Source of the DNA: Promethearchaeota archaeon
GTDB lineage: Archaea > Asgardarchaeota > Lokiarchaeia > Sigyniarchaeales > SOKP01
Direction: 5' to 3'
DNA length: 64,000 bases
NCBI GenBank assembly: GCA_016839705.1
Contig: JAEOTR010000060.1
Coordinates: forward strand, 1-64,000
Part shown: piece after piece, positions 39,794 to 41,996 of the stretch
Layout of the letters: the number at the start of each line of letters is the position of its first letter
Numbering within the stretch: the first letter of the stretch is position 1
Notes under the pieces: generated by a model
The model's input: the letters and a program-made list of their open reading frames with translations, nothing else
Told to the model about the DNA's origin: nothing
Database searches by the model: none
Program-made: the position numbers and the translations under genes

Positions 39794-40198
39794 ATACAGT
39801 TTGGATCCGATTTAGGTATAAATCAAGAAGATATAGAGAAAATTAGTCCACAAATTACCTTTATAACCTCTAATGCAGATATTGAAGCGATTGCGCTTGT
39901 CAGTTCTGAAGGTTACCAGATTGCATTTTCAGCATTACCCCAATATCATGTGGATGGGGACCAATTTTGCGGACTTGCAAGTGCATTATTAATGACAGGT
40001 AGATCTACTATTCAAACATTATTTCAGGAGGATTTAAGTGAAGTCATTGTTAGGGCAGAAAATGGTTATATTATCATAACCAACGCTGGAAGATTAGTAA
40101 TAGTTTGTGCGGGAACTATTATTGATACTTTGATGAAATCTGTAAAAGTCATGCGCATAGCGGCTAAAAACCTATATAAAATATTCGAGAATCGATAA
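39794..40198 (+). CDS. Roadblock/LC7 protein (extended to a probable ATA start)
   Basis: The frame upstream of GTG 39950 encodes the missing roadblock elements ADIEAIALVSSEGYQIAFS. Downstream it reads EVIVRAENGYIII. Confidence 0.8.
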   Translation: MQFGSDLGINQEDIEKISPQITFITSNADIEAIALVSSEGYQIAFSALPQYHVDGDQFCGLASALLMTGRSTIQTLFQEDLSEVIVRAENGYIIITNAGRLVIVCAGTIIDTLMKSVKVMRIAAKNLYKIFENR

Positions 40199-40375
40199 TA
40201 CTTTTTTTTTGGTTATTTCCTATCAAGGGAAATCTGCTTTCAATTTTAACAAAAATGTAAAACCATATACCCATAGTTTAAAAATATTACAAAAATATCA
40301 AAAGGAAAGAGTTAACTTTTTAAGCCTTAAAATAAAATAATCAATAACATTATAATAACTTTAAAATAATGTCTT

Positions 40376-40444
40376 ATGACGCTTGCTAAAAACCTTCTGT
40401 GGTGTTGGCAGTGGCCTTGGCGTGGCGATAACGCCTTTGCATAG
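40376..40444 (+). CDS. Putative Trp leader peptide MTLAKNLLWCWQWPWRGDNAFA
   Basis: 22 codons including four TGG, ending 136 nt upstream of trpB2 on the same strand. Confidence 0.75.
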   Translation: MTLAKNLLWCWQWPWRGDNAFA

Positions 40445-40518
40445 GACTTAATTTAATGAAAGCATCTCTCTTCTCTTGGTTTTACCCTTTCAAAAATTAA
40501 ATTTATATCTTTTATGCG

Positions 40519-40549
40519 CATTAATCTATTGGCATCCAATAAATTAATG
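40519..40549. promoter_or_regulatory. Inverted repeat/hairpin in the trpB2 leader
   Basis: CATTAATcTATTGG-CAT-CCAATAaATTAATG, a 13-bp stem with one mismatch. Confidence 0.6.
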
Positions 40550-40580
40550 ACACACATTTAATATAAAGAAACAATTATAT

Positions 40581-41996
40581 GTGGTAAAGAAAATGACAGA
40601 TTATTTTAAAGCAAGGATAAATTTAGAGCCCAGTGAGGTTCCAAAGGAATGGATAAATATTGTACCCGATTTACCAACTCCTATGACTCCTTTGGTTAAC
40701 CCAATGGATGGAAAACCTGCACCACCGGAAATGGCGTTTGCAATTTTTCCCAAAGAGTGTGTGTTGCAAGAAGTATCACAAGAAAGAACAATTCCTATCC
40801 CAAATGAGTTAAGAGAGATTTATGCTAAATCTTATAGACCTACACCTCTCCATCGCGCCTTAAGGTTGGAACGGGAGTTAGGAACAGAAGGAGATGACAT
40901 TAAAATTTTTTATAAGAATGAATCAACATCTCCTACAGGATCACATAAACCAAACACTGCTATAGCTCAAGCATATTATGCCAAGAAAGACGGACTAGAA
41001 GAGCTAGTTACAGAAACAGGTGCGGGACAATGGGGTTCAGGTTTAGCATACGGGTGTAATTTATTTGACATCAAATGTACTGTGTACATGGTAAGAGCAA
41101 GTTTTACACAAAAACCAGGAAGAAAAATCTTAATGAGATGCTATAATGCTGAAGTTCATGCAAGCCCTTCGAGATTTACAGAATCAGGAAAATTATTTTT
41201 AGAAAAAGATCCAGATCATCCTGGAAGCCTAGGAATTGCAATCTCTGAAGCTATTGAACATAGTATGAGTAGTGATAAAATAAGGTATTCTTTAGGAAGT
41301 GTTGTAAATTTTGTGCTTTTACATCAAACCGTTATTGGACAAGAAGCAAAGATACAATTAAATAAAGCGGGGATCAAAGATCCTGATATAGTCATTGGTT
41401 GTATGGGAGGCGGATCTAACTTCGCTGGGTTAATGATTCCTTTCGCCAGAGACAAATTAACTGGAGCTAATTCAGAAATAGAGATCATCGGAGTAGAGCC
41501 ACGAGCCTGTCCAAGTGTTTGCAAAGGACAATATCGTTGGGATTTTGGGGATACAGCAATGAAAGGACCTATAGCAAAAATGCATACTTTAGGTCATACA
41601 TTTATTCCTAGCCCAATACATGCAGGGGGATTAAGGTATCACGGAATGGCTCCGATTGTTTCAATTTTAAACAACAATAAGGTAATCTCAGCAACAATGC
41701 ATCATCAAACGGAAGTTATAAAAGCTGGAATTCAATTTGCTAAAACGGAAGGGATTCTTCCTGCTCCTGAAACTGCTCATGCCATAAAAGAAGTCATCGA
41801 TCAAGCCATAAAAGCCAAGGAAAACAACGAAAAGAAGGTAATACTCTTTAACTTTAGCGGTCATGGATATTTTGATTTACTAGCTTATAAAGAATATATG
41901 ACAGGTGCATTAGAAGATTACGAATTACCTACTGAAAGCATTAAAAAAGCTCTAGAGTCAGAAGAAATGCCAAAAATCGATGAATCACAGTTTTAA
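40581..41996 (+). CDS. trpB2: Tryptophan synthase beta chain 2
   Basis: RPTPL.RA..LE, SPTGSHKPN (PLP lysine), TETGAGQWG, GGGSN, IHAGGLRYHG, FNFSGHG. Confidence 0.95.
   Translation: MVKKMTDYFKARINLEPSEVPKEWINIVPDLPTPMTPLVNPMDGKPAPPEMAFAIFPKECVLQEVSQERTIPIPNELREIYAKSYRPTPLHRALRLERELGTEGDDIKIFYKNESTSPTGSHKPNTAIAQAYYAKKDGLEELVTETGAGQWGSGLAYGCNLFDIKCTVYMVRASFTQKPGRKILMRCYNAEVHASPSRFTESGKLFLEKDPDHPGSLGIAISEAIEHSMSSDKIRYSLGSVVNFVLLHQTVIGQEAKIQLNKAGIKDPDIVIGCMGGGSNFAGLMIPFARDKLTGANSEIEIIGVEPRACPSVCKGQYRWDFGDTAMKGPIAKMHTLGHTFIPSPIHAGGLRYHGMAPIVSILNNNKVISATMHHQTEVIKAGIQFAKTEGILPAPETAHAIKEVIDQAIKAKENNEKKVILFNFSGHGYFDLLAYKEYMTGALEDYELPTESIKKALESEEMPKIDESQF

What the first reader, a model, noticed from the sequence alone, without database searches (positions are those of the whole stretch)
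40376..40580. Trp-codon leader peptide upstream of trpB2: candidate ribosome-sensed attenuation in an Asgard archaeon
Seen: a GC-rich island in an AT-rich spacer encodes MTLAKNLLWCWQWPWRGDNAFA*, with four TGG codons in alternating positions, on the same strand just upstream of trpB2. Behind the Trp codons is a hairpin GGCG-ATAA-CGCC (40424-40435). Its 3' arm can alternatively pair with GGCGT (40419-23), which overlaps the last Trp codon. Next come a pyrimidine tract (about 40465-40490) and a 13-bp stem (40519-40549). Known: Trp-rich leaders (trpL) control bacterial trp genes, while characterised archaeal trp control uses repressors such as TrpY. Archaeal termination uses U-tracts and aCPSF1/FttA. 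I know of no demonstrated leader-peptide attenuation in archaea. Inference: ribosome stalling on low Trp-tRNA switches termination or translation of trpB2.
Basis: partly seen in the sequence, partly recalled or inferred. Interest (0 to 1): 0.88.

Follow-up and report, generated by a model that had tools for sequence, protein, structure and literature searches.

The report
Tryptophan-sensing leader peptide in Asgard archaea
A 22-codon mini-gene with four tryptophan codons, wrapped in a conserved folded RNA, sits in front of this archaeon's tryptophan-making gene and in front of tryptophan genes across many Asgard archaea; it most likely lets the ribosome sense tryptophan shortage, a control well known in bacteria for which I found no published report in archaea.

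Summary
Observation confirmed; interpretation partly supported.

The ORF at 40376-40444 is the only upstream ORF with at least 3 Trp among 1,048 genes tested. It recurs before trpB2 in 81 of 91 family loci: in-frame ATG in 73/81 (other frames 2, 2), and 0/77 in-frame stops before the first Trp. Related leaders precede trpB2 in 11 further Asgard families and 14 trpD-led operons, including L. ossiferum. Three families with TrpY beside trpB2 show none. The same genome has Cys, Leu and Ile leaders before cysK-like, leuS and ileS genes.

New here: a covarying helix (P0) pairs the uORF start region with the segment after its stop (16/18 clades). U4 tracts follow (77% vs 20-26% background).

Ribosome sensing of Trp-tRNA is likely (~0.88). 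The output is unresolved: aCPSF1/U-tract termination is favoured here; an RBS switch is predicted in one distant family. Nothing is shown experimentally. The scan found this leader before on other genomes (e.g. e1-5425522).

The parts
40307..40324 (+). Purine-rich BRE-like segment plus TATA-like box (core 40317-40324); inferred promoter of the leader, start site inferred near 40345-40352
   Evidence: TTTWWAW lies 75-90 nt before the first Trp codon in 76 of 81 orthologous leaders; coordinates. Start site not mapped.
40345..40378 (+). 5' arm of helix P0: 5' UTR plus the uORF start codon (inner 8 bp at 40371-40378)
   Evidence: Duplex with 40440-40460 at -10.6 kcal/mol; native -7.4 vs cross-paired -4.6 vs shuffled -4.0 over 67 leaders, for this target only; 16 of 18 clusters
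40376..40444 (+). Leader ORF, 22 codons, Trp at codons 9, 11, 13, 15
40419..40435 (+). Hairpin H1 over the last Trp codon; family register 40419-23:40431-35, second register 40424-27:40432-35. In most relatives the stop codon lies in or next to its loop
   Evidence: 88% of cells paired, 2 pairs with changes on both sides; more stable than shuffles in 99% of 81 leaders
40440..40460 (+). Conserved CAnnGG motif and 3' arm of P0; in this lineage it contains the shifted stop codon (40442-40444)
   Evidence: TG of the uORF ATG can pair with the motif's first two bases in 67 of 67 leaders, though both sides are nearly invariant; same motif 18 nt after the last Trp in the four small f8 genomes
40465..40513 (+). 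Pyrimidine/U-rich zone, candidate aCPSF1 (FttA) terminator; U4 tracts at 40480-83 and 40510-13
   Evidence: At least 2 U4 tracts at +30..+75 from the last Trp in 77% of leaders vs 20-26% of intergenic windows. The window copy has only one U4 in that interval and is C-rich instead
40516..40555 (+). Distal hairpin H2 (core 40519-40549) with conserved loop-side TCCAAT
   Evidence: 90-93% paired with changes on both sides; G-U 38 vs A-C 10 cells (not independent); also present in trpD leaders and kept in three loci that lost the uORF
40583..40587 (+). Weak Shine-Dalgarno-like GGTAA
   Evidence: G196 of alignment A1 nearly invariant
40593..41996 (+). trpB2, stand-alone type-2 tryptophan synthase beta subunit (regulated gene)
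   Evidence: TIGR01415 599 bits, cut-off 519; PRK12391 655, cut-off 366

Best explanation
A cis-acting, ribosome-read sensor of charged tRNA-Trp that sets how much trpB2 is transcribed. (1) A promoter near 40320 makes one transcript carrying leader and trpB2 (inferred; weak RNA-contig support in L. ossiferum). (2) A ribosome translates the leader (frame selection shown; translation inferred). (3) With Trp plentiful it runs to the stop and leaves. The untranslated U4 tracts then emerge unprotected, and aCPSF1/FttA cleaves and terminates, with a 3' end predicted near 40480-40515 (inferred). (4) With Trp-tRNA scarce it dwells on the Trp codons, which lie 1-2 codons before the stop in most relatives. 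This blocks H1, leaves the P0 3' arm free, and keeps a ribosome next to RNA polymerase while the U tracts pass, so termination is escaped (inferred). P0 encloses the whole uORF and is melted by a ribosome at the start or stop. Whether P0 is the read-through fold or the terminating fold is not resolved. Probability of the sensing step alone is about 0.88; of this full chain about 0.55.
For: Frame and start under selection: in-frame ATG 73/81 vs 2 and 2; in-frame stops 0/77 vs 50 and 41. Target specificity: trpB2 in 12 families, 14 trpD-led operons, two copies in L. ossiferum, one per trp locus. The codon changes with the pathway: Cys, Leu, Ile. A TrpY-family repressor was not found in 0/25 genomes of this family, and lies next to leaderless trpB2 in f24, f13, f26. 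U4 enrichment at a fixed distance. Two U4 tracts are the minimal aCPSF1 signal and the Loki orthologue reads them (PMC8716108). FttA contacts U-rich RNA 30-36 nt from the 3' end, and ribosome/FttA exclusion is hypothesised (PMC11616081; PMC8116511). Full-length aCPSF1 in 33/41 genomes of the order. RNA contigs run from inside both L. ossiferum leaders onward, one into trpB2 (4 runs, one study).
Against: No ribosome-dependent change in U-tract accessibility in folding models. A stalled ribosome covers only about +13 while the U tracts start near +40, so protection needs coupling that is unproven in archaea. In bacteria a stalled ribosome usually exposes RNA to Rho, the opposite sign (PMC13675443). 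U bias is weak or absent in f5, f7, f8, f21. aCPSF1 over the cut-off was not found in this 93%-complete assembly. The window copy has only one U4 in the main zone. Genomes are related, so counts overstate independence.
Confidence: 0.55

Rival explanations
1. Same ribosome sensor, but the output is translation initiation: ribosome position decides whether the downstream Shine-Dalgarno sequence is sequestered.
For: In four f8 genomes (one genus, 1.3-1.4 Mb) P0 is very strong (z -3.7 to -8.5 in three tested) and competes with an anti-SD:SD hairpin: RBS opening costs 4.7-5.7 kcal/mol with P0 and 7.9-10.3 when its 5' arm is blocked. Mycobacterial poly-Cys leaders work this way (10.1101/834739). One trpD spacer is only 44 nt.
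Against: In the window's family the trpB2 RBS opening energy is 5.9-6.1 in every ribosome state (60 leaders). No consistent shift in most other families. In f8 the ribosome-free state also predicts 'on', so the switch would rest on kinetics.
Confidence: 0.2
2. Same sensor, other output: ribosome-dependent mRNA cleavage or decay, or ribosome hand-over and reinitiation as in eukaryotic uORF control.
For: Conserved structure without a thermodynamic switch. H2 persists where the uORF is lost, which suits a stability element. aCPSF1 is a ribonuclease.
Against: Spacers of 44-450 nt with hairpins and an SD-like element argue against scanning or reinitiation. No direct sign of a processing site.
Confidence: 0.12
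3. The TGG repeats are an RNA-protein or RNA-RNA recognition array (TRAP-like), or the Trp-rich peptide or leader RNA acts in trans; the codon identity is incidental.
For: Codons between the Trp codons are conserved at nucleotide level (CAG 78/81, CCT, CGT), giving a 6-nt periodic repeat.
Against: The repeats stay in frame with a start, usually exactly 8 codons upstream (56/81), across a variable N-terminus without stops. Spacing and flanking codons differ in other families. Cys, Leu and Ile leaders use synonymous codons of their own amino acid.
Confidence: 0.06
4. trpB2 has its own promoter inside the spacer and the H2 palindrome is a DNA operator; the uORF is an independent small transcript.
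For: A TATA-like run precedes H2 in many relatives. H2 survives loss of the uORF in L006, L012, L073.
Against: G-U outnumber A-C 38 to 10 in H2. The leader follows trp genes to different loci. An RNA contig bridges leader and trpB2 in L. ossiferum (weak).
Confidence: 0.05
5. Chance ORF in a GC-rich patch.
For: Short ORFs are common (2,225 in upstream spacers); 7 of 1,048 genes have a 2-Trp tail by chance.
Against: Unique in the genome at 3 or more Trp, and conserved in frame in 81 loci.
Confidence: 0.01

Closest known systems
E. coli trpL ribosome-mediated transcription attenuator (Rfam RF00513; details from memory)
   Same: Short leader ORF with clustered Trp codons before Trp-synthesis genes; a hairpin over the Trp codons and stop; pairing of the leader start region with a distal segment; cognate leaders for other amino acids and synthetases.
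   Different: Archaeal host and promoter. No GC hairpin plus U run and no 2:3/3:4 alternative. Alternating rather than tandem Trp codons, close to the stop. No Rfam match at gathering level.
Actinobacterial terminator-less leaders: mycobacterial poly-Cys sORFs and the LEU element (10.1101/834739; PMC1262725)
   Same: Cognate codons at the very end of the ORF, no intrinsic terminator, pyrimidine tract behind, a closing stem. The same genome has a poly-Cys leader before a cysK/M-like gene.
   Different: There the shown output is RBS sequestration, which is not predicted for this family though it is for f8. These leaders have an inferred 5' UTR of about 25-30 nt rather than being leaderless.
E. 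coli tnaC / Rho-dependent attenuation
   Same: A ribosome dwelling near the leader stop could keep a termination factor off an unstructured pyrimidine site; aCPSF1/FttA is the archaeal functional counterpart of Rho (PMC11616081).
   Different: tnaC senses free Trp through the nascent peptide and induces catabolism (from memory). Here several Trp codons imply tRNA sensing for biosynthesis, and the peptide N-terminus varies.
Archaeal trp regulators TrpY (M. thermautotrophicus) and Tar (T. kodakarensis) (PMC6737238)
   Same: Trp-responsive control of trp genes in archaea; TrpY homologues flank trpB2 in other Asgard families.
   Different: DNA-binding proteins acting at initiation. No TrpY homologue found in this genome or in 25 family genomes with one query.

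Membership tests
Classical leader-peptide transcription attenuator (trpL type) | Short ORF with clustered cognate codons upstream of the cognate pathway genes | tested here: met
Classical leader-peptide transcription attenuator (trpL type) | Start codon and reading frame conserved | tested here: met
   73/81 vs 2 and 2; 0/77 in-frame stops vs 50 and 41
Classical leader-peptide transcription attenuator (trpL type) | Intrinsic terminator (GC-rich hairpin followed by U run) between leader and gene | tested here: not met
   None found; H2 is followed by A-rich sequence
Classical leader-peptide transcription attenuator (trpL type) | Mutually exclusive antiterminator and terminator chosen by ribosome position | tested here: not met
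   H2 stays formed (p about 0.8) in all states; U-tract accessibility flat
Classical leader-peptide transcription attenuator (trpL type) | Match to Rfam Trp_leader | tested here: not met
   No match near a gathering score
Classical leader-peptide transcription attenuator (trpL type) | Regulation by charged tRNA, lost on codon substitution | not testable with these tools
   Needs reporter or Ribo-seq/Term-seq
Poly-Cys-type translational attenuator (mycobacteria) | Cognate codons adjoining the stop codon | tested here: met
   Last Trp 1-2 codons before the stop in 66/81; 7 codons in the window lineage
Poly-Cys-type translational attenuator (mycobacteria) | Stalled ribosome frees the downstream RBS | tested here: inconclusive
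   Not predicted in this family; predicted in f8
Factor-dependent attenuation (tnaC/Rho type, here aCPSF1) | Factor-loading site in untranslated RNA just behind the leader stop | tested here: met
   At least 2 U4 tracts in 77% vs 20-26%; weaker in the window copy
Factor-dependent attenuation (tnaC/Rho type, here aCPSF1) | Termination factor encoded | tested here: inconclusive
   Not over cut-off in this 93% assembly; 33/41 genomes of the order
Factor-dependent attenuation (tnaC/Rho type, here aCPSF1) | Premature 3' ends that depend on the factor and on leader translation | not testable with these tools
   Only assembled contigs available
TrpY/TRP-box regulon | TrpY gene and TGTACA boxes at the promoter | tested here: not met
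   No TrpY match in G000 or 25 family genomes; no TGTACA in 40198-40593
TrpB2 (type-2 tryptophan synthase beta) | Passes TIGR01415 cut-off, below TIGR00263 cut-off | tested here: met
   599 vs 519; 154 vs 392

The most novel reading that the evidence does not exclude
Asgard archaea run a genome-wide, probably ancient system of amino-acid-sensing leader peptides (Trp, Cys, Leu, Ile at least) in which the uORF lies inside the loop of a closing helix and ribosome dwell time gates cleavage by aCPSF1, the CPSF73 orthologue. That would be attenuation built from bacterial-style ribosome sensing and a eukaryote-type 3'-end nuclease, in the lineage closest to eukaryotes.
Probability: 0.45. Interest if true: 0.93.

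Novelty: new variant of a known kind. Interest (0 to 1): 0.84.

Why it matters
Leader-peptide attenuation is treated as a bacterial device; the archaeal trp regulators described so far are DNA-binding proteins (PMC6737238). Ten literature searches found no archaeal case (subscription journals are largely not covered). If true, this gives defined natural loci at which to test an open question: whether an archaeal ribosome and aCPSF1/FttA compete for the transcription complex, so far a hypothesis (PMC11616081, PMC8116511). The leaders are short, occur in a cultured Asgard archaeon (two copies in L. ossiferum), and can be moved into M. maripaludis, where the Loki aCPSF1 already works (PMC8716108). 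It also bears on where eukaryotic uORF-based amino-acid control came from, and offers a way to predict gene function in Asgard genomes from the leader's codon.

Tried and rejected
Rfam scan: only sub-threshold chance hits. RNAalifold on the raw alignment returned just 3 pairs because registers shift between clades; replaced by named-pair counts. A long-range pairing of the CAnnGG motif with the H2 loop side (ATTGGA:TCCAAT) looked like a 2:3 antiterminator: 81% paired but often broken, about one compensatory case, and never formed in constrained folding; not accepted. The first constrained folds left out the 5' UTR and masked everything upstream of the ribosome, so they missed P0; redone. A genome-wide duplex test for P0 across distant families was significant in only 12 of 46 leaders, so P0 is not shown to be universal. 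A pause-site reading of the motif (Y then GG, 8-9 nt after H1) rests on memory and is absent in most families; left as speculation. The uncovered stretch 1423-1594 of L080 in the RNA contigs cannot place a start site: the two paralogous leaders diverge there and short tips are pruned. Xie and Reeve 2005 is not held. One search used a wrong family accession and says nothing. A Met-rich ORF on contig C9 and a short Met ORF before a cysteine desulfurase were not pursued.

Full report
OBSERVATION. The 22-codon ORF at 40376-40444 has Trp at codons 9, 11, 13 and 15. The gene behind it is trpB2, with relatives of 70-93% identity in Promethearchaeota (Lokiarchaeia) genomes. In this assembly (93% complete) neither trpA nor trpD was found. 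Among 1,048 genes with an upstream spacer of at least 150 nt, this is the only one preceded by an ORF with three or more Trp near its end; seven have two.

CONSERVATION. Of 91 distinct trpB2 loci in the family, 81 carry the Trp cluster about 160-190 nt before the start. An ATG lies in frame 12-36 nt upstream in 73 of them, against 2 and 2 in the other frames, and in 56 it is exactly 8 codons before the first Trp. Between start and first Trp the sequence varies, yet has no in-frame stop in 77 loci, against 50 and 41 in the other frames. The last Trp is 1-2 codons from the stop in 66 of 81. The window and its two closest relatives share a 1-nt deletion that removes the fifth Trp and shifts the stop. 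These loci are related, so the counts describe depth of conservation and are not independent trials.

BREADTH AND TARGETS. Trp-tailed ORFs precede trpB2 in 31 loci of 11 further Asgard families, with spacers of 64 to about 450 nt. Those with only two Trp are individually weaker. RNA contigs of L. ossiferum showed a second, diverging copy of its leader; it lies at the head of the trpD-led biosynthetic operon. In all, 14 trpD-led operons carry such a leader. Families f24, f13 and f26 instead have a TrpY-family gene next to trpB2 and no leader was found there; TrpY was not found in 25 genomes of the window's family. Family f12 has TrpY elsewhere and leaders in some loci, so the exclusion is not strict. 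The same genome holds a poly-Cys leader before a cysK/M-like gene (found), a Leu leader before leuS (6/6 loci) and an Ile leader before ileS (3/22 loci) (leads from earlier scan notes). A codon that changes with the pathway is the strongest argument that the ribosome reads these elements.

RNA ANATOMY. A TATA-like box lies 75-90 nt before the first Trp codon in 76 of 81 leaders. H1 covers the last Trp codon. H2 (40519-40549) is conserved, with changes on both sides and a G-U over A-C bias that points to RNA; it also occurs in trpD leaders. Codons between the Trp codons barely drift, so RNA pairing constrains them too. Native arms pair at -7.4 kcal/mol against -4.6 for arms from different genomes and -4.0 for shuffles, and no other downstream segment shows this. 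Native beats cross-clade pairing in 16 of 18 clusters, weakly in the largest one. I looked for it after scan notes on the Cys and Ile leaders described similar pairings. Behind P0 come U4 tracts: two or more in 77% of leaders against 20-26% of intergenic windows.

MECHANISM. No bacterial terminator is present. Folding with a masked ribosome footprint leaves H2, the U tracts and the trpB2 RBS unchanged in this family. What does change is H1, blocked by a stalled ribosome, and P0, which drops from about 9.5 to 5.8 expected pairs when the ribosome sits on the stop but stays when it sits on the Trp codons. So the sensor geometry is clear and the output is not. Published work makes termination the best guess: two U4 tracts are the minimal aCPSF1 signal, the Loki enzyme reads them in M. 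maripaludis (PMC8716108), FttA binds U-rich RNA 30-36 nt from the 3' end, and exclusion between FttA and a coupled ribosome is proposed but untested (PMC11616081). aCPSF1 is in 33 of 41 genomes of the order though not in this assembly. Against it, the stalled ribosome does not physically cover the U tracts, and uncoupling normally favours factor-dependent termination. In four small f8 genomes P0 competes with an anti-SD:SD hairpin, which predicts translational control there; the output may differ between lineages. RNA contigs bridge leader and trpB2 in L. ossiferum, a weak hint from one study that says nothing on levels or ends.

COMPARISON. It works like a bacterial leader-peptide attenuator but is not a member of the trpL family: two defining features, the intrinsic terminator and the antiterminator alternative, were tested and not met, and Rfam has no match. 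It is closer in layout to terminator-less actinobacterial leaders (PMC1262725; 10.1101/834739) and, in the favoured mechanism, to Rho-dependent attenuation. Archaeal trp control in the literature I could read is by TrpY and Tar (PMC6737238). From memory, Xie and Reeve 2005 suggested that the second codon (Trp) of trpY might sense charged tRNA; the paper was not available to check. Ten searches found no report of leader-peptide attenuation in archaea; coverage of subscription journals is poor.

EARLIER SCAN NOTES. The scan reported the same Trp leader on other genomes (43 notes match), and Cys, Ile and Leu leaders. These are not independent evidence; the claims used were re-tested here except the DPANN case.

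VERDICT. A real, conserved regulatory element. Ribosome sensing of Trp-tRNA about 0.88; aCPSF1/U-tract termination as output 0.55 overall; RBS control 0.2. New variant of a known kind, in a domain where that kind is unreported. Interest 0.84.

Noticed in passing
G000:C73, 113 nt upstream of 82855-83853 (-); L141, L145: Leader ORF ending in 7 Cys among its last 9 codons before a cysK/cysM-like gene (below the curated cut-offs); Cys-rich ORFs at the same place in 12 related loci, with a hairpin whose loop holds the stop codon.
   Followed up: yes
G000:C30 upstream of leuS (L331): Leu-rich leader 135 nt before leuS, conserved in 6 of 6 loci, followed by a U tract. Lead from e1-5576757.
   Followed up: partly
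G000:C97, stop at 77713 (-), upstream of ileS (L346): Ile-rich leader 151 nt before ileS; clear in 3 of 22 ileS loci only. Lead from e1-5577202.
   Followed up: partly
L127:787-1290 (-) and other f24, f13, f26 loci: TrpY-family gene beginning Met-Trp, divergent from trpB2, with TGTACA in the f24 spacers; no Trp leader found there. L127 is from Ca. Freyarchaeum deiterrae.
   Followed up: partly
L006, L012, L073 upstream of trpB2: uORF lost but H2 kept, with compensatory changes; L073 also keeps the 3' half of H1 and the CAnnGG motif. Loci without the uORF mostly have shorter spacers (163-284 vs median 357 nt).
   Followed up: partly
L286:4251-7022 (-), L. ossiferum: 923-aa TrpC-TrpF-TrpB1 fusion in the trp operon that carries the second leader copy.
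   Followed up: no
window 39794-40198 (+): Roadblock/LC7 gene upstream of the leader; its frame is open for 134 codons from an ATA, the first common start (GTG) gives only 82. Possible unusual start codon.
   Followed up: no
G000 whole assembly: No trpA, no trpD and no full-length aCPSF1 found (93% complete). trpB2 may be the only Trp-making gene, an indole-salvage role known for TrpB2 from memory.
   Followed up: partly
G000:C9, 121 nt upstream of 70801-71457 (+); L142: 29-codon ORF very rich in Met before a gene of no known family.
   Followed up: no
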